In this document: positions 1 through 20,950 of the stretch, in pieces
How positions within the stretch are numbered: position 1 is the stretch's first letter
How the letters are laid out: each line of letters opens with the position of its first letter
From: Escherichia coli
Lineage (GTDB): Bacteria; Pseudomonadota; Gammaproteobacteria; Enterobacterales; Enterobacteriaceae
Length of the DNA stretch: 64,000 bases
Assembly: GCF_003991155.1 (NCBI RefSeq)
Contig: NZ_CP031293.1
Direction: 5' to 3' (one strand)
Made by a program: the position numbers and the translations under genes
Notes under the pieces: generated by a model
The model's input: the letters and a program-made list of their open reading frames with translations, nothing else
What the model was told of the DNA's origin: nothing
Databases searched by the model: none

Positions 1-323
1 ATGCTGCTGTTGCCTTGTTAAAAGCTTTACCACGCTTTAAGGGTATAAATTTTGTATTCCCTGCCACCCGAAAGGGACAACTCTCGGATACGGCTTTGCT
101 GGCAGTCCTAAAGCGAATGGGATACACCGATTTAACACAGCATGGGTTTAGATCGACATTCCGTGATTGGGCTGGTGAAACGACCAACTATCCGCGTGAG
201 GTAATTGAACATGCGTTAGCTCACCAGTTGGCAGATAAGGCAGAGGCTGCGTATCAACGTGGGACATTATGGCCTAAGCGGGTGGCGTTGATGGATGAAT
301 GGACGGGGTTTTGTGTTTCTTAG
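1..323 (+). CDS. Tyrosine recombinase (phage-type integrase), C-terminal fragment; 5' end lies upstream of the window
   Basis: ORF 15..323 is open to the window edge; translation carries catalytic-domain motifs (HGFRSTF, REVIEHALAH) typical of lambda/P4-type integrases. Confidence 0.7.
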   Translation, partial: AAVALLKALPRFKGINFVFPATRKGQLSDTALLAVLKRMGYTDLTQHGFRSTFRDWAGETTNYPREVIEHALAHQLADKAEAAYQRGTLWPKRVALMDEWTGFCVS

Positions 324-386: not shown

Positions 387-914
387 TTGTATAAGATTTA
401 TCAATTTAGAGTAATATACGACAGAAACGTTTCACATGAATATGCTGTTTTTAAGGAGAAAAATGAAACGAGTAAACTGGACTGGTTCAATAACGTAGAA
501 AATCGCCCACATCCTTGGGAAGGTATGGGGCTGACATGGTTGACAACAGCACTAAATGTCCCTGATGTAAAAGCAGCTATTAATTTTTACACTGAAGTAA
601 TGAAGATGGTGGTAATTTCTGAACTTGAGGGTGATGGTGGTGATGTATTATTTGCTCGTATCCGTTACCGTGGCACAAACTTCACCATAAATAAGGAAGG
701 ATGGGATTCCGACCTGAAAAGCCCAAATACTTCGGGAGCTATGCCTCCCTTTATTTTTTATATGTATGTAGATGATATGATCACTCTGGTAAATGAAATG
801 GTTGAAGCTGGCTCGACTGTTCTAAATGAACCTGCTGAAATGTTCTGGGGTGATTTAAAAGCCCGTGTGAAAGACCCATTTGGTTTTATCTGGGATATAG
901 CACAGAAACTGTAA
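387..914 (+). CDS. VOC/glyoxalase-like family protein (start uncertain: TTG at 387 or ATG at 525)
   Basis: C-terminal WGDLKARVKDPFGFIWDI resembles glyoxalase/bleomycin-resistance fold proteins; no good RBS at either start; a strong AGGAGA-ATG at 463 is out of frame. Confidence 0.4.
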   Translation: MYKIYQFRVIYDRNVSHEYAVFKEKNETSKLDWFNNVENRPHPWEGMGLTWLTTALNVPDVKAAINFYTEVMKMVVISELEGDGGDVLFARIRYRGTNFTINKEGWDSDLKSPNTSGAMPPFIFYMYVDDMITLVNEMVEAGSTVLNEPAEMFWGDLKARVKDPFGFIWDIAQKL

Positions 915-972
915 AGAAATCGTCAGATCATCGTTCAACTCCTCTTTTCGGTTAAAGTAGGCTGTTGAAATC

Positions 973-1016
973 AAAATGCACAACACATTTAATTCTTACT
1001 ATGTCGTGCATTTTTG
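973..1016 (+). terminator. Possible intrinsic terminator between convergent genes
   Basis: Imperfect hairpin aaaatgcacaac ... gtcgtgcatttt followed by T-run at 1011-1015; loop is long. Confidence 0.3.
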
Positions 1017-1056
1017 ATTCAAATAATTAATACAAAATCAATTCTGTATACTACTT

Positions 1057-2520
1057 TTATTTACATGCATATAACCTTCTGAAATTACTATAACAGTGCT
1101 CGTTCTTACTACCACTACAACGTTGTTCATCATATTCAGCGATTAAAGTTCCAGATATATAACCAAACTGAGGGCTATACGTTGACCCCGGACAGGCACA
1201 TGTCCCTGTATCACTATTCGGTATTACACACTTATATCCAGATACTTGATCGGTTATTGTTATAAAAATACCTTTCAGGCCATCACCACTTGCTGTCTGC
1301 CATTTACCACTGACACACGATAACACTCGGCCTGTACTGTCTCGCCCCACCAGACCATTAGGCGTACATTTCGCATTTAACGTTGCCTGACCATTTAAAT
1401 GGAGATATTCACCTGCTTTGATCCTGCCAGTTGATTCAATTGTTCCATTGGATTTTATCGTTCCGGCGGTAAGATTACCTGACGCATAAATATTACCCGC
1501 ATTGTTCATGTAAGCTTTAACTGTTTTACCGGTTCCTACACCAACAGTCCCTGACGCATACAAGTCATAGGTGCGAACACCGCCAGCCCAGCCAGCTGGC
1601 AGATCGTTTGGATTAAGTCCGTTCGTGGCAATACGACTACCAAATCTCGCCAGACCTGTTGTTGAAAGCGTATTCAGATAAGTATCGGATTTTACCTTCA
1701 GGTTGTTGTTGATATTTACAGGACCATTAAGGGTAGATGTTCCACCCACAGTCAGATCTGATGCAACAGACGCATTACCCGTGGTTTTCAGTGCTCCGGT
1801 TGTTGTTGTCCCTGATGCCGTCATATCTTTGATGTTTTTGATGCTCTTACCACCAAGATTCAGATCACCCGTCATCGGCAACGTTCCATCACGGCGCAGA
1901 TAAACAGAATACATTGAAGAGTTATACCCCACGCGGTAAGCCAGCAATCCACCACCCGTAATATTGCTGTAGCTGTTAGAGTTCTCACTCCACTGACCAC
2001 CATAGCCGGAAGCTATCTTGGTGTTTCTGCTCATCCCACCATCAACACCTGCCGCCTGAACCGCTTTACCTAACAGGTCATAACGAATACGACCACCTTC
2101 TTCCCACGGGCTGGCGGTTGTTATAAGGCCGTTAATGACATAATCAGGCGCTGTTCCTGAACGCTTTAACACAATCTTATAGGATGCTTTTTGCGCGTTA
2201 GTTCCTGTATAGCCTACAGGCAACAGACCTTCATTAATTAACGTCTGGTAAGTGATTTCACAACCAGCAGCCGAACATGTTCTTGGCCCCGGATCGCTAC
2301 TTTGATTGTTGGATGATGACAGTGTGGAAATCTTGTCATATCGAATACTGATATAGCGGTTAACCGCTTCACCAAGCTGTTTAATCTGTGTTCCAACATT
2401 ATCTGCTAATACCGCTTCCTGATTGTTTCGCATATCCTGAAACTTCATAAAAGCGATAAGCGTTCCAATACCTAAAACAATACTGACTTCCAGTAAGGTA
2501 AATCCTTTATTCTTTATCAT
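1057..2520 (-). CDS. pilV: Type IVb minor pilin / tip adhesin, PilV-like
   Basis: N-terminus [17 protein letters not shown] matches the type IV prepilin processing/hydrophobic motif (G|FTLLE); large Gly/Thr/Ser-rich body as in R64-type PilV; GGAGA RBS before ATG at 2520; directly downstream of pilS. Confidence 0.65.
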
Positions 2521-2572
2521 AATTATCTCCCTGTTTTGGCAATAAGAAAGAAAAGGGCTTACGCCCTCTTCA

Positions 2573-3130
2573 TTAAATAGACGTGAAAACTAATGTATTA
2601 CTTGTGGCATTCGTACATGCTGCTGCCGTAGCTGCCACATCGAGTGTTCCTCCTGCGGCTTTAACAACCTTGGTTCCAACCGTGGTAATGTAGAAATTAC
2701 CTGCTGCCGCTGTCGCAATCTTCACACATTCCGCTGCTGGCACATTATCGTATGTGATAGTGAAAGAAGAGCCAGCCGCTGATGATGGTCCTGTAGCTGT
2801 AGCAGCCAGCGTCACATTACCTTTAAAGGCATTAATGGGTTTAGCTGCCGTTCCTGACCCACTTAACATATTGTCAGGGAAGATTTTTGCCTGAACAGCC
2901 ACAGTATTTGTCAGGCCAGTAAAGCTTGATGCCGACGTGTATAATGCTTTAACACCTGCCTGTATGGTGGCAATGTTATTGGATTCTGCCTGCGCTCTTT
3001 GTGAAGCCTGAACCTTGGGATAAACGATAAAAGCCGCTACCACTAATGCAGCAATGATGCCCAAAACAAGTAATAGTTCGAGTAGTGAGAAACCTTTCTT
3101 GCTTTTTCTTTTGTTATTTAATAAAACCAT
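2573..3130 (-). CDS. pilS: Type IVb major prepilin, PilS-like
   Basis: Long basic leader [13 protein letters not shown] followed by [16 protein letters not shown], characteristic of type IVb prepilins; GGAGA RBS 6 nt before ATG. Confidence 0.65.
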
Positions 3131-3525: not shown

Positions 3526-3831
3526 TTATTTTTGTCTTCCATCCATTTGCGCCAGAAACTTCCTGCCTGCTTTTATATACGTTATTTTTTCAATATCATT
3601 CAGGTCAGGAACTGAAAGCAAAATCCCCATAACGAGTTCTTTATCCACCTGTTCGATATCGCAATGCATAGCTTTAGCTACTTCCGCGCCAAGTATAATC
3701 TTTAGCCTTGTTTCAATTTTCTTTCGTTCTGATTTCTCCAGAGACTTAAGACGATTAAGTTCAAGCTGAGCAAAAGCAACCTTTTGCTTTAATGTTTTTT
3801 CTGTTCTTGATCTTTTACTTTCATCACTCAT
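3526..3831 (-). CDS. Hypothetical small coiled-coil protein; weak resemblance to TraD-like relaxosome accessory proteins
   Basis: ORF; start overlaps the stop of the upstream gene by 4 nt (ATGA-type coupling); motif RKKIETRLKIILGAEVAKA recalled as similar to Ti-plasmid TraD, from memory only. Confidence 0.35.
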   Translation of the reverse strand: MSDESKRSRTEKTLKQKVAFAQLELNRLKSLEKSERKKIETRLKIILGAEVAKAMHCDIEQVDKELVMGILLSVPDLNDIEKITYIKAGRKFLAQMDGRQK

Positions 3832-4193
3832 ACAACATCATCCTTACCCAAAAAATAGGCAAATACTTCATCCACGCCTTTCATGGCGAGAACATCACTG
3901 AACAGCAAAATAGACGTCGCCAGATTTCCCGCTTCATCTGATGGTATAGACCTAAAGAACTCCATCACTTCATCTTCCTCATGGTATCGTGTCATCGCAT
4001 CAACTTTTATTTGCCATTCACCAATAGCAAAAAGCGCTGCTTCAAAGCAGGACTGAAATCGTTCTATATCAGGGCCAAAATGATACGTTATTCCGTCTTT
4101 ATATTTCGCAATGAAAATTTCAGTAATTTTTTCATTACTGCTCTGAAGAATATGAGTATCAATAGTAAAAACATAGGCCAGTTGTGCATTCAT
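3828..4193 (-). CDS. Hypothetical protein, first gene of a two-gene overlapping operon
   Basis: Clean 121-aa ORF with AT-rich upstream region; no recognisable motif. Confidence 0.4.
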   Translation of the reverse strand: MNAQLAYVFTIDTHILQSSNEKITEIFIAKYKDGITYHFGPDIERFQSCFEAALFAIGEWQIKVDAMTRYHEEDEVMEFFRSIPSDEAGNLATSILLFSDVLAMKGVDEVFAYFLGKDDVV

Positions 4194-4497
4194 TTTTTAT
4201 CTCCTTTGGTTATCGAATATTATATTTAACTATCACCAAAGAGAAATGACGTCAAATTAATAAAGTATTAGATATTACAATAGGATGTTAATCCTAAATC
4301 TACAACCGAAAATATCCCTTGTAATTATCCTTAATTTAAAATATTAAGTCATATGCACAATAATTAGTGATTCACCTAATCCAAAATCATCAGTAATTAA
4401 GTTATCAAATGATACACATTATTCTAAAACTTCTTTTATCTATATCCTCCAACGTTTACAATGCATGATAGGCAACGATTAATCATAAGAGGTAATT

Positions 4498-5376
4498 ATG
4501 AATATTTTTAGTCTCATCACTGATCCTGATAATGCAGTTTATTTGACTTTAGATAAATTTTATAAAAAAACGCATAGACATTATCCCTATATTCAAAAGG
4601 TTAATGGAGAAACTAAAGCATACGCTTTATGCCCAAGATGTCACAATCCGGTCCTTTTGGTTAATAGAATAAATAATCAGACGGAATCAAAAACTTTATA
4701 TGCTAAGCATGTTAAACATGATGTAATGGGTATCGCATCATATTCTCAACAAGGTTATGATGATTGCTCACTTGCAAACCCAACAAATCTTGATGCAAAA
4801 ATCAAAAGAGATATTAATAATAAATCAAATAATGAAATAAAAGATGCTGTTAAAAATTATTTCGATCTACTTATATACTCAATTGAATCACATATAGGCA
4901 TCAATTTTTCTGATTCCGTTTTAGCTCAAATGCTTGAGGATTTCAACGCTTGTGATGGACACCAGTATAGAGCGATTAACTTATATAATTTACCGTTATC
5001 ATTTGTCTACATCGCAAATGCTCAGGATCTTTACGGTTGTAGAGTAAACGGAAAAATCAAAGAAAATATAGATAAAAACTCAGAATCATTTATAACATCC
5101 GGTACAGAACTTTATGATAAGAGCCTGTATTATGTTAATAGAAAGAAAGGCAGTCCTTATAATAAAATCCTGTTTTATTTCTCTAATCATACCATTTCGA
5201 CAGAAAATGATGATGAATCGGTAATGTTATATATTGTAGAAAAAAAACAGGATCAGACTATAGATTCAGCAAAAATACTCTATAAAGAAAAAATATATTT
5301 TGATGGCACATATTTTTTTAATACTATGAAAAAAAGAGCACGGCTAAACGATTTAGCAAAATCAATTATTCAATAG
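4498..5376 (+). CDS. Hypothetical protein with Cys/His motif (CPRCHNPV ... HVKHD), possible zinc-ribbon or HNH-like
   Basis: 292-aa ORF, very AT-rich, Lys/Asn-rich; divergent from the 3526-4193 operon. Confidence 0.45.
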   Translation: MNIFSLITDPDNAVYLTLDKFYKKTHRHYPYIQKVNGETKAYALCPRCHNPVLLVNRINNQTESKTLYAKHVKHDVMGIASYSQQGYDDCSLANPTNLDAKIKRDINNKSNNEIKDAVKNYFDLLIYSIESHIGINFSDSVLAQMLEDFNACDGHQYRAINLYNLPLSFVYIANAQDLYGCRVNGKIKENIDKNSESFITSGTELYDKSLYYVNRKKGSPYNKILFYFSNHTISTENDDESVMLYIVEKKQDQTIDSAKILYKEKIYFDGTYFFNTMKKRARLNDLAKSIIQ

Positions 5377-5688: not shown

Positions 5689-5989
5689 TATATCTCCTTA
5701 TGTTAATTATTATACATGGAGTAATACAATTATTCTCATCAGTCAAATCATAAAATTATAATAAATTCCATGAGTGGGTAAAGCTCAGTAGAAAAATAAA
5801 ATAGTGCAACGCATGTGATAGTATTTACTAACCAAAAACATCTGACACTCTCCGCGTTACTTATTTTTGCGCATTCGTGATTTTATTTTCACCTATCAAT
5901 TTTTAACTCTATTTTTCAATCTCAACCTGTGAATTGTGCAACACATAACACTCTCTGTTTTATTGGTTTTTTTCATCAAATTTAGCTAT

Positions 5990-6036
5990 CCCGCCTTACG
6001 GCGGGAATAATTAATACCTCTTTTGCCCTTACGGGC
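5990..6036 (+). other. Candidate oriT: two GC-stem hairpins sharing a TTAC loop
   Basis: cccgcc-ttac-ggcggg (5990-6005) and gccc-ttac-gggc (6025-6036), about 300 bp upstream of the relaxase gene; relaxase genes usually sit next to their oriT. Confidence 0.3.
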
Positions 6037-6337
6037 CTTTTCTTTACTCTTTTTGTCCTGTGGATGTGAAACCTACACCTTTAATCCAGTTTGCGCCGCT
6101 TATTCCGGCGTATTATTTTACAACAATACATATATTTCGTATTAATTGATAAGAGGGGCATTTTACATTGGCTTATTTTCTTAAAGACAATGCCCACCTA
6201 TACACTGCGTAGCAGTGTGTGGGGTCTACCGACGGTTGCCTGCCGCAGGCTAAAAGCAAAACCAAGGTCAACGTCAACCCCGAAGTTTTTCTGACGAAAA
6301 ACTAACAGCAGCATTTATATTTGAGGTTATATTTTTA

Positions 6338-7819
6338 ATGGCGATTTTTCATCTGGATTTTAAAATTGTGAAACGAAGCGAAGGCATGACTTCTGTTGCG
6401 AAAGCTGCCTACCATGCCCGTACACGTATTACGGATGATCGCATTGGAGAAACATTTGATTTCAGCCACAGAACAGATCTTCATGGTCATATTATATTGG
6501 CACCTGTTTCCGCACCCTCTCATATTGTTGAAAGCTCCTCAACACTCTGGAATGAAGTTGAAAGAGTGGAACGCCAGAACAATGGTCAAACAGCCCGTTA
6601 TTTTGATGTCGCTATCCCCGTAGAACTCAGTAATGATGACAAGAAAAAATTGGTTGCTGAATACTGCCAGAAGAACTTTGTTGATAAGGGAATGATTGCC
6701 GATATCGCATTTCATGATTTAGACGGTAAAAATCCCCATGCTCACGTTATGTTAACCCTGAAAACTGTTGGTCCCGAAGGCTTCGGTAAAAAAGACAGAA
6801 GCTGGAATGATAAGAAGATAATGATCCAATGGCGTGAGTCATGGGCCACGATGTCAAACAGCTACCTTGAAGCTATTGGAAGTGAAGAACGTATCGATCA
6901 CCGTTCTCTCAGGACGCAATGTGCTGATGCCCTTACCCAAGCAGAAGAAGCATTCAGCGCTGAAGAGAAAGCATTCTGGCTTGCCAAGGCAACAGAAACA
7001 AACCGCCCGGCAATGCAGCGTGTTCATCGTGCTAAATGGAATAACACCGAGTCTCAGGAACAGCGAGCTGCTGAACAAGCTCAACGCGATCATCAAATTG
7101 AGGAAGCAAAGAAGGTCTACACTACATTCAGTGAGCTACCACTGGAAATCGTGGTTGATGTTCGCTCTTACTCTGTTTACCAGCTTCCTGAACCGGAAGA
7201 GATCGTTCTCCCTGACTTCCCAGCTACAACTAAACAGCAACCTGTTTCAGCGACACCAGCCATAAGCAGAAGACCAGCAGCAAAATCTTACCGTGATCCC
7301 AGTAAGGTCAGTAAAGTAAATGTTTCAGGGAAGAAATCCCCTGTTCTGGTTGCGCCTGAACCAACTGCATCCACTAAATTGAAAACCCCATCTCTTCAAA
7401 AAACCAGAGCGATGAACCGCGCTCCTGTGAGGAGTAGGAAACAGACCAAGCCCCGCCAGAATGGTTTGTTTAAACGTTTCACGCTACTGATAGTAGGATA
7501 TATAAGAGAGAAATTTATCTGGGCCAAAAGGAAAGCAGATACCACTGATGCTGACCATGACAAGCGTATCGCAGAGAACTATATCTATGATGAAGTGCTG
7601 GGTGTCAATGTTCCACGTTCGGAGTTTGAAAAACGTACCAAATTTAACAATGGTGACTATAAATTAACACCTGATGAAATCAAGCGTTTCCCAAGCCGTC
7701 CTAATCAGGAACAGCCGGAAGTTAATAGAAGCATAGATCTCACACCTTCAATGCCACCAGAACACATGAGGCAAGGAAGCGCGCCAAAACTGAGTCCACC
7801 GAGCCATAAGAGACATTAA
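6338..7819 (+). CDS. mobA: MobA/MobL-family (MOBQ-type) conjugative relaxase
   Basis: N-terminus MAIFHLDFKIVKRSEG...AAYHARTRI parallels RSF1010 MobA (MAIYHL...), with the histidine triad region HAHVMLT and IDHRSLRTQ; C-terminal half is low-complexity. Confidence 0.8.
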   Translation: MAIFHLDFKIVKRSEGMTSVAKAAYHARTRITDDRIGETFDFSHRTDLHGHIILAPVSAPSHIVESSSTLWNEVERVERQNNGQTARYFDVAIPVELSNDDKKKLVAEYCQKNFVDKGMIADIAFHDLDGKNPHAHVMLTLKTVGPEGFGKKDRSWNDKKIMIQWRESWATMSNSYLEAIGSEERIDHRSLRTQCADALTQAEEAFSAEEKAFWLAKATETNRPAMQRVHRAKWNNTESQEQRAAEQAQRDHQIEEAKKVYTTFSELPLEIVVDVRSYSVYQLPEPEEIVLPDFPATTKQQPVSATPAISRRPAAKSYRDPSKVSKVNVSGKKSPVLVAPEPTASTKLKTPSLQKTRAMNRAPVRSRKQTKPRQNGLFKRFTLLIVGYIREKFIWAKRKADTTDADHDKRIAENYIYDEVLGVNVPRSEFEKRTKFNNGDYKLTPDEIKRFPSRPNQEQPEVNRSIDLTPSMPPEHMRQGSAPKLSPPSHKRH

Positions 7820-11001: not shown

Positions 11002-11613
11002 CTATTTTTGTTTATATAAATCGTAGGAACTTAATTTTTTAGATTTCTCATAGGCATTTTCAATGTATAAAGATACATCTGCTAAAAATCGGTCTTCTTC
11101 TATCAATGAAATATAAGAACCAGTCAATTGATCATATGATTTGCACTCAGGGCAACAATATTTATCTTCTGAAGTTAAATTAAACCTATTATTATTAATA
11201 ATGTCATATAGTTCAGTTGTGTCAATAGTTCTTGATGAACATCCATCAGGCTTGATTGAAGAAGATACTAACCAGTCATAGCTATTATTAACCTTCATTA
11301 TCACACCAACAATGCCATTAGTTCGGGAAGTGGTTCCTCCTCTCTTGTATTCTTTCAATGCATATTCAATTTCCCAGTCAATCCATTTACTTTTAATCAT
11401 ATTCGGGGAAATAATAACGATTAAAACAGATGTCCCGAAAATCATATTTTTAAGATTGTTCTTTATATTATCTACTGTTGTATTACTTATATCAGGAGAC
11501 TCCGATGTTTCCCCTTTATAGTAAACAGCATCATCACCTAATGCCTTGACAATTTTGTCTCTTAAATCCTGTGCTTCACTATATTTATATGATATGAATG
11601 TTTCATGAGCCAT
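11002..11613 (-). CDS. thsB: Thoeris ThsB, TIR-domain protein
   Basis: N-terminal ETFISYKYSEAQ and WIDWEIEYAL are typical TIR-domain signatures; 16 bp downstream of thsA on the same strand. Confidence 0.8.
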   Translation of the reverse strand: MAHETFISYKYSEAQDLRDKIVKALGDDAVYYKGETSESPDISNTTVDNIKNNLKNMIFGTSVLIVIISPNMIKSKWIDWEIEYALKEYKRGGTTSRTNGIVGVIMKVNNSYDWLVSSSIKPDGCSSRTIDTTELYDIINNNRFNLTSEDKYCCPECKSYDQLTGSYISLIEEDRFLADVSLYIENAYEKSKKLSSYDLYKQK

Positions 11614-11629
11614 AACTTCACCTAATATA

Positions 11630-13066
11630 TTATTTATTCAGTTTGTTTATGATTTTTATTACAACTTCTATTGTTTTTTTTACCGAAAAATCTTTTTCAG
11701 TAAGCTCAGACAAATCATTATATATCCATTCATTACTTCCATAATATTTCTTAGGATCTTGTGATATTTGTTCAAATATATATTTAGACATATACCCGGT
11801 ATTGGGTAAAGGAATTGGTACAAGGCCATGTTGAACAGCAATCTCAAACTCTCTAAATACTCCCCTAGCATTTACTATATCATTATTTTCCTCTTGTTTA
11901 TTTCCAAAAATAAACAATGCAATACCACCAAGAGGAATCATTCTCTGTCTATACTCCTCCCAAAGTTCTTGAATATCTTTCCCCTTACTGACAGTTTGTG
12001 GAAATGGTCTAACAATGAGCTGTTCTTCTGATAATTTATCTGGCCTACTATAAATTGCATCCAACGCACCATTTATCACAGAACTTCCGACGCCCCATCC
12101 AAATCCATTCACTATCCTATAATTATTCTTTATAATCTCATATGCTAATGTGTGAATAAAATCTAATGCTTTAGGTCTTTCAAGATCCCCATATTTTTCT
12201 GCACTACCAGAAATAAATATCGTTTTCTTTTTAAATGATTGCTCTATCTTAGCTAGAATTTTAGGGATGTCAGAATATTCATCTATTAATAATACTTGTA
12301 TACCAAATCTCTTGAGATCATCGATTCGCAGTTTTTGTTTTCTGATCTTATAATTTACTGTTTCTTCATCATCTAGGGAATTATTAGCCTCATTCTTCAT
12401 AAAGCAATAGTGTGTCCTCTTGTCCCCAGAATGAGTATACAAACGACTCAAAATGTAATCCAGATTTGGGTCGGTAAAACTAAACCCTATGAATAGAAAG
12501 GTTTTTGATATTAAATCTCCGCTAAGTGCGGTGATAAATGAAGCGTGTGTTCTGTAGTATTTTTCATACTGCTCTTTATATAAAATAGCCTTGGATGGGG
12601 ACGAAATATCACCATGCATTTTATATACTATCGCGTCTCGCTTAGGTCGTGTTGTATTTAAATCATCTATGTTTCTTTTTACATCTGCAATTTTGTAAAC
12701 TTTCCGCAGACTATCTTCAATTAAAGTGTCATAGTTTGTTGTCCAAAATGTCTTAATCGGTAAACGAGCAATTATATTATGAACCTCTGATGGCTCGGCT
12801 TGCTCAGAAAACTCTTCGATTATCTTCCTTGTGAGTTTTGTAGCCCCTTTCTTTTCATTAACATGAAATTGAGCAAGCGATATTAGATCGTCTTCTTTAT
12901 TAATGTCTAAACTAAGCTCTTCTGCTATATCGCTAAGTAATTCTTTCCAATCAACATAACCTTGACTTTTAGACATTCCTGCGCCAGAAAAAATAGCAGC
13001 ACAATCATTTTCAAGATCTTTAACAAAATCTTTTATGAAAACTTCAATTTCATTACTAAACGTCAT
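11630..13066 (-). CDS. thsA: Thoeris ThsA, SIR2 (NAD-binding) plus SLOG domain protein
   Basis: From ATG at 13066 (GGAG RBS 9 nt upstream) the protein MTFSNEIEVFIKDF...AAIFSGAGMS...TTNYD...MHGD (SIR2) then IFISGSA...GFGWGVGSSVINGALD (SLOG) closely parallels Bacillus cereus ThsA as I recall it. Confidence 0.85.
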   Translation of the reverse strand: MTFSNEIEVFIKDFVKDLENDCAAIFSGAGMSKSQGYVDWKELLSDIAEELSLDINKEDDLISLAQFHVNEKKGATKLTRKIIEEFSEQAEPSEVHNIIARLPIKTFWTTNYDTLIEDSLRKVYKIADVKRNIDDLNTTRPKRDAIVYKMHGDISSPSKAILYKEQYEKYYRTHASFITALSGDLISKTFLFIGFSFTDPNLDYILSRLYTHSGDKRTHYCFMKNEANNSLDDEETVNYKIRKQKLRIDDLKRFGIQVLLIDEYSDIPKILAKIEQSFKKKTIFISGSAEKYGDLERPKALDFIHTLAYEIIKNNYRIVNGFGWGVGSSVINGALDAIYSRPDKLSEEQLIVRPFPQTVSKGKDIQELWEEYRQRMIPLGGIALFIFGNKQEENNDIVNARGVFREFEIAVQHGLVPIPLPNTGYMSKYIFEQISQDPKKYYGSNEWIYNDLSELTEKDFSVKKTIEVVIKIINKLNK

Positions 13067-13274
13067 TACACTTATCTCCATTTTAACTATTATTCCCAAA
13101 AGTAGAGAATAAACCTTTCAACCGGAGTTCATGAAACAGCATCTAAAAATATTCTGCCGGATACGAGTAAAATCATACTGGATATAAAAACAGTTGTCGA
13201 GAACTAAAACAATTGAAAACATGGCCAGATGGCATAGATAATATTACATACGAAAATTATTAACCAGATAATAT

Positions 13275-16022: not shown

Positions 16023-16568
16023 ATGTTAGATAATAAAATAAAAAAATCAAGAAGAGGTCTACCTCGCCATGTAAAAAACCCATTCCTTAATGATACAAAT
16101 ATACATACAAAAACAGGTATCAGACGTATCACAACAGGAAAAGATCGCTTAGCCGTAGTAAATGAAAATACAGGAGAACAGGTTGGGCATGGTGGTTTCT
16201 TTCAGTCAATGGAAGTAGACAAGACACAGTTCGTGAAGCTTTATGTGGATGGCGTATCAGCTATTGAGGGTTTATCCTCATCCGGTAAGAAAGTATTTAA
16301 GATACTGTATCTTGCTATTAGAGACAATAAAGATACAGATACGATATTAATGTCATTCGATATTGTTGATCAAGAGATTGTAAAAATATCAAGAACGACA
16401 TATTTCAAAGGGATGAAAGAACTTGCTGACAAGAAATTTATTGCTGAGACCATGATACAGAACTATTATTTTATTAATCCAGACTATATGTTTAATGGTG
16501 ATCGTTTAACTTTCATGAAAACTTATTACTTGAAGGGTAAAAAGAAAACAGCGAATAATAAAAATTAA
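16023..16568 (+). CDS. Hypothetical basic protein, possibly DNA-binding
   Basis: 181-aa ORF with AAAGGGGAAAG RBS-like region upstream; weak resemblance to small replication/DNA-binding proteins, not verified. Confidence 0.35.
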   Translation: MLDNKIKKSRRGLPRHVKNPFLNDTNIHTKTGIRRITTGKDRLAVVNENTGEQVGHGGFFQSMEVDKTQFVKLYVDGVSAIEGLSSSGKKVFKILYLAIRDNKDTDTILMSFDIVDQEIVKISRTTYFKGMKELADKKFIAETMIQNYYFINPDYMFNGDRLTFMKTYYLKGKKKTANNKN

Positions 16569-17359: not shown

Positions 17360-17764
17360 ATGAGTGAAGCTCTCAAGGCACTGAACAATATTCGTACACT
17401 TCGCGCACATGCTCGTGAAACAGATCTGACAACTCTGGAAGAGATGCTGGAAAAGCTCTCTGCTGTCGTTGAAGATCGCCGTGAGGAAGAAAATTCAGCC
17501 CGTAAAGAACAAGAAGAACGTCAGGCTAAACTGGAAGCCTTCCGCCAGAAATTGTTAGAAGACGGTATCGATCCTACAGAACTACTCGCTGCTGTTAGTT
17601 CATCCCAGCCTAAAGCCAAATCAACTCGTGCTCCTCGTCCTGCTAAATACAAATATACAGATGAAAACGGTAATGAGCAGACTTGGACGGGTCAGGGCCG
17701 TACTCCTAAAGCAATCGCCGCTGCTATCGAAGCTGGTAAGACACTGGAAGACTTTGCAATCTAA
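17360..17764 (+). CDS. H-NS family nucleoid-associated protein (island-encoded paralogue)
   Basis: [20 protein letters not shown]...[25 protein letters not shown] aligns closely with E. coli H-NS, including the DNA-binding TWTGQGRTP motif. Confidence 0.85.
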
Positions 17765-17827: not shown

Positions 17828-18208
17828 TCATCCAAGGCTATCCCAGTCTGGCAGGTTGTTAACGACCTTTCGCCACCAATGATACGCAGCCATAAGAACA
17901 CCAAAACAAATACCTGCGACGACGCTTGAGACAAATGCAGTGCCCGGTTGTATCCCTGTATCCTTCCAAGTAAAAAACCACATACAGATCCCCCATGCCG
18001 GACCAAACCATCCACCCATCAACAAAGTGATTTGCCAGAATGAGGCAAAAGGTAGCGGTGGTATCTTGAGTCCAGCTTTCCATGCGAGGTGTAGCAAAGG
18101 AGGGGCATAATTACTTCGCCACATCTTCTTGCTTTCCATGATGGCAATAGCGTGTTTCTTTTTAGCTTCAAAGCCCATACGGTTCCCTCCAGCTCCACCT
18201 TTACTCAT
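17828..18208 (-). CDS. Hypothetical inner-membrane protein
   Basis: 126-aa ORF with two or more hydrophobic, Trp-rich segments. Confidence 0.4.
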   Translation of the reverse strand: MSKGGAGGNRMGFEAKKKHAIAIMESKKMWRSNYAPPLLHLAWKAGLKIPPLPFASFWQITLLMGGWFGPAWGICMWFFTWKDTGIQPGTAFVSSVVAGICFGVLMAAYHWWRKVVNNLPDWDSLG

Positions 18209-18282: not shown

Positions 18283-18525
18283 TCATTCCTTTAGATCTTC
18301 TGGCGAAACCCGGTCACATGCCATTTTCTCAAGCATTCTTTGTAATCTTTTCATTTTCAACTTACGCGCTTTTTTCTCACCAATCTCCTGATAGTATTCT
18401 TCACGACGTTCGTTGACCACGCTCCTGAAATTTTTCAAAAGCTGTTCAAGTGTTTTGATGTCAGTAGTTGCGGCTTCCGCTTGGATTTTTTTATACATAT
18501 ACATCACATGAAATTCATCGATCAT
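18283..18525 (-). CDS. hnsT: Truncated H-NS-like protein (H-NST-like, oligomerisation domain only)
   Basis: 80-aa protein with TLEQLLKNFRSVVNERREE matching the H-NS N-terminal dimerisation region but no DNA-binding domain. Confidence 0.6.
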   Translation of the reverse strand: MIDEFHVMYMYKKIQAEAATTDIKTLEQLLKNFRSVVNERREEYYQEIGEKKARKLKMKRLQRMLEKMACDRVSPEDLKE

Positions 18526-19311: not shown

Positions 19312-19530
19312 TTATGCAGCGTTCTGGCGTGAGTTTCGAATAGTCGTTTCAATCCATTCATCAATCTCACTTTCAACAAAAGCAACACACCTCGGACCTA
19401 TTTTTACTCTGTCAGGAAAGTTTCCTTCCTTAATACGCTCATATAAAGTCGTGCGACTGAATCCCACTCGATTTAAAACATCAGGAACGCGGATAAATCG
19501 TTTTACGCTGGTTTCAATATTTTCTTTCAT
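19312..19530 (-). CDS. alpA: AlpA-family phage regulatory protein (MerR-like HTH)
   Basis: IRVPDVLNRVGFSRTTLYERIKEGNFPDRVKIGPRCVAFVESEIDEWI matches the AlpA pattern; AGAGGA RBS 6 nt before ATG 19530. Confidence 0.7.
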   Translation of the reverse strand: MKENIETSVKRFIRVPDVLNRVGFSRTTLYERIKEGNFPDRVKIGPRCVAFVESEIDEWIETTIRNSRQNAA

Positions 19531-19745
19531 TGTCTGTCCTCTATTATTGTAAGTAATCTCTATGAGATTTCGCTTTTCTCTATGTTGTTTCGACGTGAAC
19601 AATGATAGCGATTTTGCTTATGGTAATTTAGGGACGTTCAAAGAAGTTTTTTTTGAAAAATTCGAAGGGGCACGGATGGAAAGATAACGGTTAACACTGG
19701 ATGAGATCACGTTCGCTCGGAGCGAACGTAACCCTTTTACTTGGC

Positions 19746-20639
19746 TTATTTTTTCTTATTCCTGTCGTCTTCTACATGCTTTTCAACAGGGGAGTCTTTC
19801 AAGTGGTTGTTTTCCATCATGTAATCTTCAAGCGATTTCAGATAGCTCGCATCCGTCAGAAAAGCCATTGCTAACGGGTAGTCCGTTGCCTTTAGCATTC
19901 CTTCATCACGATCGTTGTCGCTGTCCTCGTGAAGCAGCGAAGAAATCAGTGAAAGCGGGATTTTAATGCCGTTATCTTCTCCCCAGAAGATCAGGTCCAT
20001 CATCGGGATAAGACGATATTCAATGATTTTTCTGAATGTGCTTTTGCCGAAACGATACTCTCTTGGCGCTGGAGACTTCATCTTAAGCTGTCTCTTCCAT
20101 TGAGGGATCAGCACTTTCAGATGTTCAATGATTTCTTCAGTTGATGCCTCTTCCAGATGAATATCGACAGTAATGCGTGAAAGATTATTAAGGGATGTTT
20201 CTTTTAGATACTCGGACAGAAATTCGGATTCGCTTAACGCGGAAAGCTCAGGCGTGGCTTCGGTTAATGCCAGCGTTTTCGCATAAAATTGCGCGTGGCT
20301 TCGTGTCGTAGGATTTACCGCGTAGGTTCTGGCAAGCTCATGTCCAAGGGTAGCGGTATCACCACTGAAAAAGATTTCACCGCTGAGGATCTTGTTGCGG
20401 TAATCATCCAGCATTAATCGGTTAAAGGTAGGTATGGTGTTCCGGCTCAACAACATTCTGTAAGCCAAGATACGCCGCTCAACCTCAACATAAAACTGCT
20501 GTAAGGTGAGTTTCTCTATCGCCTCATATCGTTCCACATCAAACCATGCTTCCAGTGCTTTCCTGATTTCACTTCTTTTCATCCATCCTCCAACAATCCA
20601 TTTCCTTTGATATATCTTCACAGGATCCGTTTGGAACAA
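19746..20639 (-). CDS. Hypothetical protein occupying the position next to tRNA-Ser where an integrase would be expected
   Basis: 297-aa ORF, no tyrosine- or serine-recombinase motifs recognisable; same orientation as alpA. Confidence 0.4.
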   Translation of the reverse strand: MFQTDPVKIYQRKWIVGGWMKRSEIRKALEAWFDVERYEAIEKLTLQQFYVEVERRILAYRMLLSRNTIPTFNRLMLDDYRNKILSGEIFFSGDTATLGHELARTYAVNPTTRSHAQFYAKTLALTEATPELSALSESEFLSEYLKETSLNNLSRITVDIHLEEASTEEIIEHLKVLIPQWKRQLKMKSPAPREYRFGKSTFRKIIEYRLIPMMDLIFWGEDNGIKIPLSLISSLLHEDSDNDRDEGMLKATDYPLAMAFLTDASYLKSLEDYMMENNHLKDSPVEKHVEDDRNKKK

Positions 20640-20860: not shown

Positions 20861-20950
20861 TGGCGGAGAGAGGGGGATTTGAACCCCCGGTAGAGTTGCC
20901 CCTACTCCGGTTTTCGAGACCGGTCCGTTCAGCCGCTCCGGCATCTCTCC
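20861..20950 (-). tRNA. serU: tRNA-Ser (anticodon CGA), serU
   Basis: Reverse complement reads GGAGAGATGCCGGAGCGGCTGAACGGACCGGTCTCGAAAACCGGAGTAGGGGCAACTCTACCGGGGGTTCAAATCCCCCTCTCTCCGCCA, matching the E. coli serU sequence as I recall it. Confidence 0.95.

What the first reader, a model, noticed from the sequence alone, without database searches (positions are those of the whole stretch)
1057..3130. Orphan type IVb pilin genes (pilS, pilV) without assembly machinery or shufflon
Prepilin motifs are clear, but no prepilin peptidase, secretin, ATPase or Rci recombinase is present in the window, and pilV is followed directly by a convergent gene. Either an ICE pil operon remnant or pilins assembled by machinery encoded elsewhere.
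Basis: partly seen in the sequence, partly recalled or inferred. Interest (0 to 1): 0.35.

Follow-up and report, generated by a model that had tools for sequence, protein, structure and literature searches.

The report
Orphan pilin pair of serU island
The two pilin genes are real and intact, but they are the already-described "pilus filament only" module of a common mobilizable E. coli genomic island (the serU island, a sibling of ROD21-like islands), and what machine assembles them is still unknown.

Summary
Window 2573-3130(-) encodes a PilS-family type IVb major prepilin and 1057-2520(-) a PilV-like tip pilin. No pilus machinery, Rci or sfx site lies in the window or in the 20 kb upstream, which are core genes.

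The pair is not a decaying remnant. It is a backbone module of a ~22-kb integrative mobilizable island at tRNA-Ser (serU). The backbone also has a P4-type integrase, AlpA RDF, DUF6387, MobQ relaxase, TraD-like protein, RepL-like protein and H-NS/H-NST, with a Thoeris cargo. It matches the CFT073 tcpC/serU island and published ROD21-like (EARL) islands, where this pilin pair is a listed hallmark.

Both genes are under strong purifying selection (dN/dS 0.00-0.11). PilV tails after an invariant LSCxxGxW motif form at least 10 unrelated cassettes, at the junction where IncI shufflons recombine.

About 10-14% of complete E. coli genomes carry the pair, almost always chromosomally. At most 14% of carriers also hold an IncI-type pilus machine, with no positive association.

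My best mechanism is inferred, not shown: a filament-only cassette assembled in trans for cell-cell contact during mobilization. The feature is already known; its function is open.

The parts
15..323 (+). 3' end of the island's P4-type tyrosine integrase. The gene starts upstream of the window; the full gene is L001 19103-20323.
   Evidence: NCBIfam PRK09692 integrase domain. Annotated as a 406-aa integrase in the identical genome. Only 27% identical to the integrase of an E. coli Asn-tRNA ROD21-like island.
387..914 (+). VOC/glyoxalase-family cargo gene, convergent with pilV
   Evidence: Pfam Glyoxalase 5e-13. This slot holds a different gene in CFT073.
965..1022 (.). Inverted repeat (21-nt arms, 81% complementary) between the convergent pilV and VOC genes; terminator-like
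   Evidence: the repeat finder I4; function inferred
1057..2520 (-). pilV-like minor/tip prepilin. It has a leader of 6 aa, a pilin-like N-domain, a conserved stalk ending in LSCVSGKW (W407), and an 80-aa Cys-rich variable tail.
   Evidence: Shufflon_N and N_methyl. 24-29% identical to IncI PilV, sharing the GEYLxLN...C.PNGL.GRD..G..LSC..G.W motif. Tail cassettes vary between islands. dN/dS is 0.06-0.11. AF2 gives a pilin-like N-domain.
2550..2571 (-). GC-rich hairpin plus T-run directly after the pilS stop; a possible attenuator that would set the major:minor pilin ratio
   Evidence: scan_promoters_terminators; function inferred
2573..3130 (-). pilS-like type IVb major prepilin (13-aa leader, G|FSLLE, 172-aa mature protein, C135-C172)
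   Evidence: Pfam PilS 6e-28 and Bundlin. PDB sequence relatives are BfpA 8e-4, TcpA 0.05 and Typhi PilS 0.2. 79-99% identical across serU and Asn-tRNA islands. dN/dS is 0.00-0.10.
3526..3831 (-). TraD-like relaxosome accessory protein, on the same strand as pilS and pilV and upstream of them
   Evidence: Pfam TraD PF06412 9e-11
3828..4193 (-). 121-aa protein of unknown function overlapping the traD-like start; present in the L009 serU allele, not annotated in the CFT073 (L003) or L010 alleles
   Evidence: ORF list; no Pfam or NCBIfam hit; same gene present in L009
5689..6337 (.). 650-bp non-coding region upstream of mobQ with several hairpins; candidate oriT/promoter region, not demonstrated
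   Evidence: Sequence and hairpins at 6092-6112 and 6262-6283; inference only
6338..7819 (+). MobQ-family relaxase
   Evidence: NCBIfam MobQ 5e-74, above its cut-off. Pfam MobA_MobL 8e-54. 65% identical to the relaxase of an E. coli Asn-tRNA ROD21-like island.
11002..13099 (-). Island cargo: Thoeris-like pair, ThsB (TIR) at 11002-11613 and ThsA (SIR2 plus SLOG/STALD) at 11630-13099
   Evidence: Pfam ThsB_TIR 6e-12; SIR2_2 1e-29 and STALD 6e-72
16023..16568 (+). RepL-like (SEN1990-type) backbone gene
   Evidence: Pfam RepL 2e-5; annotation; PMC10655114
17360..18525 (.). H-NS paralogue (17360-17764 +), an intervening DUF6404 gene (17828-18178 -) and truncated H-NST-like protein (18283-18525 -)
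   Evidence: Pfam Histone_HNS_N and Histone_HNS
19312..20582 (-). AlpA-family excisionase/RDF (19312-19530) and DUF6387 gene (19746-20582), the RDF-side end of the island
   Evidence: Pfam Phage_AlpA 1e-18 and DUF6387 1e-53. This matches the 'RDF plus 843-bp gene' pair described for EARL islands (PMC6035254).
20861..20950 (-). tRNA-Ser(CGA) serU, the integration site. Its 3' 14 nt (TGGCGGAGAGAGGG on the + strand, 20861-20874) are repeated about 165 bp upstream of the integrase gene, about 1.07 kb before the window start.
   Evidence: ARAGORN; direct repeat D5 and alignment

Best explanation
pilS and pilV are the conserved 'filament module' of a ~22-kb integrative mobilizable island inserted at serU. 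This is the E. coli serU island, a sibling of the ROD21-like/EARL islands.

Together they encode the full subunit set of an IncI-type type IVb thin pilus: one major pilin and one tip adhesin. They encode none of the machine (peptidase, ATPase, platform, secretin).

Shown here:
- Both genes are intact and translatable.
- Both are under purifying selection.
- They are linked to the island's TraD-like/MobQ transfer genes.
- The PilV tip is an exchangeable cassette.

Inferred: the prepilins are processed and polymerised in trans by a type IV pilus machine that the island does not carry. The most likely source is a conjugative helper element with a type IVb thin pilus. The resulting filament, tipped by the island's own PilV, would then hold donor and recipient cells together while the island is mobilised. 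The island would thereby choose its own recipients.

I put the identity part at about 0.9 and the trans-assembly-for-mating mechanism at about 0.35-0.4.
For: **Identity**
- Pfam and NCBIfam hits.
- Island limits set by the 14-bp serU direct repeat.
- 100% DNA match to E. coli chromosomes, with core genes upstream.
- Same backbone in CFT073 and in Asn-tRNA ROD21-like islands.
- The literature lists the type IV pilin, the pilus-related protein, TraD and MobQ as EARL hallmarks (PMC6035254, PMC10763509, PMC10655114).

**Functional constraint**
- dN/dS is 0.00-0.10 for pilS and 0.06-0.11 for pilV.
- PilS is 75-99% identical across E. coli, Salmonella, Klebsiella, Citrobacter, Pectobacterium and Yersinia.

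**Filament-only logic**
- IncI operons contain exactly two prepilins, pilS and pilV, in the same order.

**Adhesin logic**
- PilV is conserved up to the invariant LSCxxGxW motif. After it the tails fall into at least 10 unrelated cassettes of 54-166 aa.
- That junction is where the IncI sfx site, which encodes CQSGTW, recombines.
- Some tails carry the phage tail-collar domain PF07484.
- R64 PilV tails bind recipient LPS (reviewed in PMC12282955).

**Link to mobilization**
- traD-like, pilS and pilV lie on one strand.
- A 5.8-kb MobC plasmid carries a lone PilV-like prepilin whose tail cassette is shared with island PilVs.
- 30-45-kb plasmids carry three orphan pilins, with an N-terminus nearly identical to island PilS ([14 protein letters not shown] shared by two of the three), plus a DotA/TraY protein and no pilus machine.
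- Type IVb machines are common on E. coli plasmids: 736 and 297 of 5426 genomes.
Against: - No helper is identified.
- Island PilS is only 26-28% identical to IncI-gamma/K and IncI2 PilS. Its mature N-terminus (Phe+1) differs from theirs (Trp+1, Ala+1).
- The closest relatives of PilS whose context could be read are all orphans too.
- Carriers are not enriched for IncI machines. 56 carry IncI1-complex against 76.8 expected (OR 0.67, p 0.006), and 25 carry IncI2 against 31 expected. At least 86% of carriers have neither. Phylogroup structure confounds this comparison.
- The island is intact in CFT073, Nissle 1917 and ATCC 25922. From my own knowledge, these strains have no large conjugative plasmid.
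- Published ROD21 transfer was about 1e-8, depended on the F-like pSLT (which has no type IV pilus), and was unaffected by deleting the MobA-like gene (PMC3976249).
- pilV is a pseudogene in ROD21 itself (PMC6968874).
- The authors of the EARL papers favour a host-benefit role (PMC10763509).
Confidence: 0.4

Rival explanations
1. The pilins are assembled by machinery that every enterobacterial host already has: the chromosomal type IVa Hof/Ppd system or the Gsp type II secretion system, with the GspO/PppA peptidases. On this reading they serve the host as a surface adhesin for colonisation, aggregation or biofilm, not for the island's transfer.
For: - Both prepilins have Phe+1 and Glu+5, and PilV has a 6-aa leader. 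These are type IVa/T2SS-like traits, unlike the Trp+1 or Ala+1 of IncI PilS.
- At least 86% of carrier genomes lack an IncI-type machine.
- The pair is intact in strains that, from my own knowledge, have no large conjugative plasmid.
- Purifying selection is maintained.
- Transposon mutants in ROD21 SEN1976 were reported as attenuated in mice, and the EARL authors favour a host-benefit role (PMC6968874, PMC10763509).
- From general knowledge, E. coli T2SS can assemble the heterologous pilin PpdD.
Against: - The globular domains are of the type IVb family: PilS, Bundlin and TcpA-like.
- PilV is homologous to the IncI conjugative tip adhesin.
- I know of no precedent for a type IVb major pilin polymerised by a type IVa or T2SS machine.
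- Tail cassettes include phage tail-collar domains, which point to bacterial surface receptors.
- Orphan homologues also ride on small Mob plasmids.
Confidence: 0.25
2. The pilins are not meant to build a pilus. On this reading they act as interfering subunits that poison or cap the type IVb pili of incoming IncI-type plasmids, or that block pilus-dependent phages. That would fit an island whose cargo is defence systems.
For: - Island variants carry Thoeris, type III RM, GmrSD, SIR2 and radical-SAM cargo.
- Carriers show a mild negative association with IncI1-complex machines (OR 0.67, p 0.006).
- The divergent N-terminus could make a dominant-negative subunit.
Against: - There is no direct evidence.
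- The negative association is easily explained by phylogroup structure.
- A poison subunit would not need a large, cassette-diversified adhesin tip kept under purifying selection.
- The genes are linked to traD/mobQ rather than to the defence cargo.
Confidence: 0.1
3. The pair is a non-functional leftover of a pil operon from an ICE or plasmid, carried along passively.
For: - The order pilS then pilV equals the distal end of IncI pil operons with pilT and pilU missing.
- Some lineages do show decay: an IS3 insertion (H140), truncation in O111:H8 and a pilV pseudogene in ROD21 (PMC6968874).
Against: - dN/dS is 0.00-0.11, with dS up to saturation.
- ORFs are intact in most of the 566-736 carrier genomes.
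- PilS is 75-99% conserved across genera.
- Both genes have strong Shine-Dalgarno sites.
- The pair is present in 52 of 56 EARL islands (PMC6035254).
Confidence: 0.05

Closest known systems
E. coli serU island (CFT073/536 tcpC-hfp island)
   Same: - Same insertion site: between zinT and tRNA-Ser serU.
- Same integrase type and same backbone order: int, cargo, pilV, pilS, traD, mobQ, ..., repL, hns, alpA, DUF6387.
- pilS-pilV DNA is 95.5% identical, and both PilV proteins are 487 aa.
   Different: - The cargo differs. The window has a VOC gene and a Thoeris ThsA/ThsB pair where CFT073 has a 606-aa hypothetical protein, tcpC, a TIR protein and a macro-domain protein.
- One paper states that the serU island has no mobilization genes (PMC5521745). 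The MobQ and TraD hits contradict this.
[quoted passage not shown] ROD21 and ICEKp258.2
   Same: - Shared conserved groups: type IV pilin plus PilV-like protein, TraD plus MobQ relaxase, P4-like integrase plus AlpA RDF with an adjacent ~840-bp DUF6387 gene, RepL-like SEN1990, H-NS/H-NST, and lipoproteins.
- Identity to an E. coli Asn-tRNA island: PilS 84%, PilV 54%, MobQ 65% (PMC6035254, PMC10763509, PMC10655114).
   Different: - EARL islands are defined by integration at Asn-tRNA genes with a shared 24-37-bp repeat, and the integrase lies next to the tRNA.
- Here the site is tRNA-Ser with a 14-bp repeat, the integrase is at the far end, and it is only 27% identical.
IncI1/IncI2 (R64, TP114) thin-pilus PilS/PilV with shufflon
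   Same: - Same two-prepilin set and order.
- PilS Pfam family and PilV Shufflon_N domain, with the conserved motif ending in ...SC.SG.W.
- The variable C-terminal tail starts at the same junction.
   Different: - No pilI-pilR, pilT or pilU machine genes, no rci and no sfx sites.
- Identity is only 24-29%.
- Tail variation is fixed per island (cassette exchange between lineages) rather than switched within a cell.
- The pair is chromosomal rather than plasmid-borne.
SGI1-type hijacking of a helper's mating apparatus (SGI1 TraN/TraH/TraG substitutes for IncC; recalled from my own knowledge)
   Same: Conceptually the same idea: a mobilizable island encodes substitute surface components of a helper's conjugation machinery.
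   Different: This is only an analogy. No helper, no incorporation and no transfer benefit has been shown for pilS/pilV. SGI1 replaces T4SS subunits, not type IV pilus subunits.

Membership tests
Type IVb major pilin, PilS/bundlin family | Prepilin leader ending in Gly, Glu at +5, hydrophobic alpha-1 helix | tested here: met
   [13 protein letters not shown]|[22 protein letters not shown]_methyl 3e-6 and TIGR02532.
Type IVb major pilin, PilS/bundlin family | PilS/Bundlin globular domain above the curated threshold, with a C-terminal disulfide pair | tested here: met
   PF08805 98 bits (cut-off 22); PF05307 34.8 bits (cut-off 22.3). C135 and C172 are invariant. BfpA is the best PDB sequence hit.
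Type IVb major pilin, PilS/bundlin family | Encoded within a type IVb biogenesis operon (secretin, ATPase, platform, peptidase) | tested here: not met
   None in the 64-kb window or in the 20 kb upstream.
IncI shufflon PilV adhesin | Shufflon_N constant region with prepilin N-terminus | tested here: met
   PF04917 53.6 bits (cut-off 27.5). Conserved GEYL...LSC..G.W motif aligned with IncI-gamma/K and IncI2 PilV.
IncI shufflon PilV adhesin | sfx recombination sites, invertible alternative C-terminal segments and the Rci recombinase downstream | tested here: not met
   0 sfx matches with up to 3 mismatches in the window, against 7 exact matches in the control L007. Only 142 bp separate pilV from the convergent VOC gene. 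No rci is annotated in the matching RefSeq genome across the window.
EARL (ROD21-like) genomic islands | [quoted passage not shown] | tested here: not met
   The island is bounded by a 14-bp repeat of the tRNA-Ser(CGA) 3' end. The integrase lies distal to the tRNA and is 27% identical to an E. coli Asn-tRNA island integrase.
EARL (ROD21-like) genomic islands | Conserved gene groups: type IV pilin plus pilus-related protein; MobA/MobL relaxase plus TraD; RDF with adjacent ~843-bp gene | tested here: met
   Identity to an E. coli Asn-tRNA island: PilS 84%, PilV 54%, MobQ 65%.
E. coli serU island | Insertion between zinT and serU, with the int...alpA-DUF6387 backbone shared with CFT073 | tested here: met
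   The annotated regions L001 and L003 show the same flanks and gene order.
E. coli serU island | tcpC virulence cargo | tested here: not met
   The window carries Thoeris-like ThsA/ThsB and other genes instead of tcpC.
Integrative mobilizable element (IME) | Own integrase and RDF plus a relaxase, and no type IV secretion system | tested here: met
   Integrase, AlpA and MobQ are present. No T4SS genes lie between the repeats.
Integrative mobilizable element (IME) | Functional oriT, and mobilisation by a helper | not testable with these tools
   Only a candidate non-coding region (5689-6337) with hairpins was seen. Published ROD21 transfer data are weak (PMC3976249).

The most novel reading that the evidence does not exclude
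Mobilizable elements of Enterobacterales carry a complete, machine-less type IVb filament kit: a major pilin plus a tip adhesin with an exchangeable receptor-binding cassette. The carriers would include serU/EARL islands, a 5.8-kb Mob plasmid and a family of 30-45-kb plasmids. On this reading they load the kit onto someone else's pilus machine, either a helper plasmid's thin pilus or the host's cryptic type IV pilus. This would re-tip the pilus and let the hitcher choose its own recipients. It would be a pilus-level counterpart of SGI1's remodelling of the IncC mating apparatus and of tail-fibre swapping by phage satellites.
Probability: 0.27. Interest if true: 0.65.

Novelty: already known. 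Interest (0 to 1): 0.3.

Why it matters
- The pair is very common. It occurs in about 10% of complete E. coli genomes in its serU form and 13.6% including Asn-tRNA forms. Carriers include CFT073, Nissle 1917 and ATCC 25922. It also sits on ICEKp258.2 of K. pneumoniae ST258.
- No function or assembly machine has been shown for it.
- If these pilins are assembled in trans to drive island transfer, they would be a new layer of helper-hitcher interaction. They could also help determine which strains receive defence and virulence cargo such as Thoeris, TcpC and RM systems.
- If they use the chromosomal machine, they would give that cryptic system a natural substrate.
- As it stands, the finding is an ordinary, already catalogued feature with an open functional question.

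Tried and rejected
1. **Pil operon just outside the window.** Rejected. Upstream lie zinT, msrPQ and hiuH; downstream lie serU, mtfA, asnT and a T6SS island.
2. **Hidden shufflon.** Rejected. No sfx sites were found, and the positive control worked. The only relevant inverted repeat is a terminator-like hairpin.
3. **A machine-linked close relative of PilS that would name a helper.** Not found.
   - All of the top 120 database homologues are at least 75% identical, and one checked relative (P0122) sits in an island of this type.
   - Representatives at 40-65% identity whose contigs could be read were all orphans or sat on contigs too short to judge.
   - The best plasmid hits are orphan pilins on 30-45-kb plasmids. 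Pilins on larger plasmids reach at most about 33% identity.
4. **DotA/TraY of those plasmids as a pointer to IncI1 helpers.** Only 22-27% identical to TraY of assorted MPF-I plasmids. Not decisive.
5. **PilV structure.** The AF2 model is of moderate quality and the tail is unmodelled. Foldseek against PDB gave nothing significant; the top hits are weak phage tail-fibre matches at E about 0.1. PDB sequence search found nothing.
6. **Promoter scan.** Hits are at chance level.
7. **Co-occurrence with IncI machines.** No positive association. This does not control for phylogeny and does not cover ICE-borne or other type IVb machines.
8. **Literature.** Searches for any report of hitcher-encoded PilS/PilV using a helper pilus found none in the held library.
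Full report
**1.

Two minus-strand ORFs sit exactly at the stated coordinates.

- Window 2573-3130 encodes a 185-aa protein. It matches Pfam PilS (98 bits, cut-off 22), Bundlin and the N-methylation motif. Its leader is [13 protein letters not shown]|FSLLE, and two cysteines (C135, C172) are invariant among relatives.
- Window 1057-2520 encodes a 487-aa protein. It has a short prepilin leader (MIKNKG|FTLLE) and the Shufflon_N constant region of IncI PilV adhesins (53.6 bits, cut-off 27.5).
- Both genes have AGGAG-type ribosome-binding sites 5 nt before the ATG, read from the sequence printed.
- A GC-rich hairpin with a T-run follows pilS directly (2571-2550).
- A second hairpin (965-1022) separates pilV from a convergent VOC-family gene (387-914).

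**2. There is no machinery and no shufflon.**

The window is 100% identical to several E. coli chromosomes.

- In one of them, the 20 kb upstream of the window are core genes: zinT, msrPQ, hiuH, hprRS and hchA.
- The rest of the window holds the island, tRNA-Ser, mtfA, tRNA-Asn and a T6SS/Rhs island.
- The 19-bp sfx site of IncI shufflons has no match with up to 3 mismatches in the window.
- The same pattern finds seven exact copies in an IncI-gamma/K shufflon used as a positive control. The first copy lies exactly at the codons for CQSGTW at the end of the PilV constant region.

**3. What the locus is.**

The pilin pair lies inside a ~22-kb island bounded by a 14-bp direct repeat of the 3' end of tRNA-Ser(CGA), serU. 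The island contains:

- a P4-type integrase, whose 3' end is window 15-323;
- a TraD-like protein (3526-3831);
- a MobQ relaxase (6338-7819; NCBIfam MobQ above its cut-off);
- a Thoeris-like ThsB/ThsA pair (11002-13099);
- a RepL-like gene;
- a full-length and a truncated H-NS paralogue;
- an AlpA-family excisionase and a DUF6387 gene next to the tRNA.

It has no type IV secretion system, so it has the anatomy of an integrative mobilizable element.

CFT073 carries the same backbone at the same site, with tcpC cargo. That is the 'serU island' of ExPEC.

E. coli islands at Asn-tRNA genes carry the same backbone with a different integrase. The integrase is 27% identical, while MobQ is 65%, PilS 84% and PilV 54% identical. 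These are the published ROD21-like (EARL) islands. [quoted passage not shown] The same description applies to ICEKp258.2 (PMC10763509) and to ROD21 SEN1976-SEN1980 (PMC10655114).

The feature is therefore already catalogued. RefSeq annotates the two genes as pilV and (misleadingly) bfpA.

**4. It is not a decaying remnant.**

- Among four serU alleles, dN/dS is 0.00-0.09 for pilS and 0.06-0.11 for pilV, at dS of 0.07-0.46.
- Against Asn-tRNA islands, synonymous sites are saturated, while dN is 0.10-0.17 for pilS.
- PilS is 75-99% identical across E. coli, Salmonella, Klebsiella, Citrobacter, Pectobacterium, Yersinia and Morganella.
- Some lineages do show damage: an IS3 insertion, a truncation in O111:H8 and a pilV pseudogene in ROD21 (PMC6968874). 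The family as a whole is nevertheless constrained.

**5. Anatomy that bears on function.**

IncI1-complex and IncI2 pil operons contain exactly two prepilins, pilS and pilV, in that order, separated by pilT and pilU. The island therefore carries the whole filament subunit set and none of the machine.

Island PilS is only 26-28% identical to IncI PilS. Its mature N-terminus starts with Phe rather than Trp or Ala.

PilV is well conserved (majority-residue fraction 0.6-0.9) up to an invariant LSCxxGxW motif ending at W407. After that point the tails of 30 island PilVs fall into at least ten unrelated cassettes of 54-166 aa. Some carry a phage tail-collar domain (PF07484). This is the junction at which the shufflon swaps tails in IncI plasmids. 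Here the variation is fixed per island and must arise by exchange between lineages.

An AlphaFold model (mean pLDDT 70) shows a pilin-like N-domain and leaves the tail unmodelled. Fold search found nothing significant; the top hits are weak phage tail-fibre matches.

**6. Orphan relatives on other mobile elements.**

- A 5.8-kb Klebsiella aerogenes plasmid with MobC carries a lone, full-length PilV-like prepilin. Its tail cassette matches that of some island PilVs.
- A family of 30-45-kb plasmids, typed 'non-mobilizable', occurs in Klebsiella, Citrobacter, Enterobacter, Salmonella and Serratia. They carry three orphan PilS-like pilins; two have an N-terminus ([14 protein letters not shown]) identical to island PilS and the third differs at one residue. 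They also carry a DotA/TraY-family protein, H-NS and RM systems, and no pilus machine.
- Their DotA/TraY is only 22-27% identical to TraY of conjugative MPF-I plasmids.
- PilS relatives at 45-65% identity whose contigs could be read are orphans as well.

Machine-less pilin genes on non-conjugative mobile elements thus look like a recurring pattern.

**7. Where could the machine be?**

I estimated co-occurrence from megablast counts over 5426 complete E. coli genomes. Concatenating two queries gives the size of their union.

| Query | Genomes with a match |
|---|---|
| serU-type pilS-pilV (all chromosomal) | 566 |
| IncI1/gamma/K pilM-pilS operon | 736 |
| IncI2 pilN-pilU operon | 297 |
| Union of serU-type pair and IncI1-complex operon | 1246 |
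| Union of serU-type pair and IncI2 operon | 838 |

- The IncI machine operons are almost entirely plasmid-borne.
- From the unions, 56 carriers also have an IncI1-complex machine, against 76.8 expected (odds ratio 0.67, p 0.006).
- 25 carriers also have an IncI2 machine, against 31 expected (not significant).
- At most 14% of carriers have either machine, and there is no positive association.
- This comparison is not corrected for phylogeny and ignores ICE-borne or other type IVb machines.
- It shows that a co-resident IncI plasmid is not the usual state. It also shows that candidate machines circulate in up to a fifth of E. coli genomes.

**8. Mechanism.**

The explanation I think most likely, at about 0.35-0.4, is trans-assembly. 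The island supplies a filament kit that is processed and polymerised by a type IV pilus machine it does not encode, most plausibly that of a conjugative helper with a thin pilus. The kit would give the donor a pilus tipped with the island's own adhesin during mobilisation.

In favour:
- linkage to the transfer genes;
- homology to an adhesin known to bind recipient LPS (PMC12282955);
- the cassette-like tip, with phage-type receptor-binding domains in some variants;
- orphan homologues on Mob plasmids.

Against:
- no helper is identified;
- similarity to IncI pilins is low;
- there is no co-occurrence signal;
- published ROD21 transfer was about 1e-8, depended on the F-like pSLT, and was independent of the MobA-like gene (PMC3976249).

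Rivals:
- Assembly by the chromosomal Hof/Ppd or Gsp systems as a host-benefit adhesin, about 0.25. It is favoured by Phe+1, by the short PilV leader and by carriage in plasmid-free strains.
- An interference or defence role, about 0.1.
- A dead remnant, about 0.05.

None of these can be settled with sequence tools alone.

**9. Verdict.**

The feature is already described in the literature as a hallmark of ROD21-like and serU islands.

What I add here:
- the selection analysis;
- the cassette junction that matches the shufflon site;
- the filament-only logic;
- the orphan homologues on plasmids;
- the lack of association with IncI machines.

Interest is modest (0.3). The open question of what assembles these very common pilins is real and experimentally tractable.

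Noticed in passing
window 11002-13099 (-): Thoeris-like defence pair as island cargo: ThsB (TIR) and ThsA (SIR2 plus SLOG/STALD). Other alleles of the island carry tcpC/TIR/macro, type III RM, GmrSD, radical-SAM or SLATT genes in the cargo slots. The backbone therefore behaves as a defence and virulence cargo shuttle.
   Followed up: partly
L002 (NZ_CP030069.1, pDA11912.4, 42 kb) and about 70 similar plasmids: A family of 30-45-kb plasmids, typed 'non-mobilizable', in Klebsiella, Citrobacter, Enterobacter, Salmonella and Serratia. They carry three orphan PilS-like pilins (45-47% identical to island PilS; N-terminus identical in two of the three, one substitution in the third), a DotA/TraY-family protein, LPD7, DUF927, H-NS, type III RM and many methylases, and no pilus or T4SS machine.
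   Followed up: partly
L011 (NZ_CP103670.1, 5.8-kb plasmid) 3657-4829 (-): A small MobC-carrying plasmid encodes a lone full-length PilV-like prepilin (MKKIKCNG|FTLIE). Its C-terminal tail is the same cassette as in some island PilVs (P0284, P0312).
   Followed up: partly
window 6338-7819 and 3526-3831: PMC5521745 states that the serU island carries neither mobilization nor transfer genes. The island clearly encodes a MobQ relaxase (above the NCBIfam cut-off) and a TraD-like protein.
   Followed up: yes
window 2573-3130: RefSeq/PGAP names this gene 'bfpA, type IV pilus major subunit protein BfpA' in many genomes. It is a PilS-family pilin only distantly related to bundlin (PDB BfpA E 8e-4), so the name is misleading.
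   Followed up: yes
window 1057-2520, residues 1-280: PHROGs family phrog_523 ('tail collar fiber protein') matches the N-terminal 280 residues of PilV at E 2.5e-43. This suggests that PilV-like proteins, or shared fibre modules, are filed among phage tail fibres.
   Followed up: no
window 21942-64000: A second island starts at tRNA-Asn. It has a P4-type integrase, an IS3 element, a complete T6SS cluster (58-60% GC), VgrG/PAAR and Rhs effector-immunity genes, and ISEc1.
   Followed up: no
L005 13373-14683 (-): In E. coli TW10828 the annotated PilV starts at MVSFMKF and lacks the prepilin leader. This is either an N-terminal truncation or frameshift, or a mis-called start.
   Followed up: no
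L006 13877-16293: In E. coli MB51 the order of the pair is inverted (pilV upstream of pilS), and an H-NS gene lies between pilV and traD. The two genes therefore stay together, but their internal order is not fixed.
   Followed up: no
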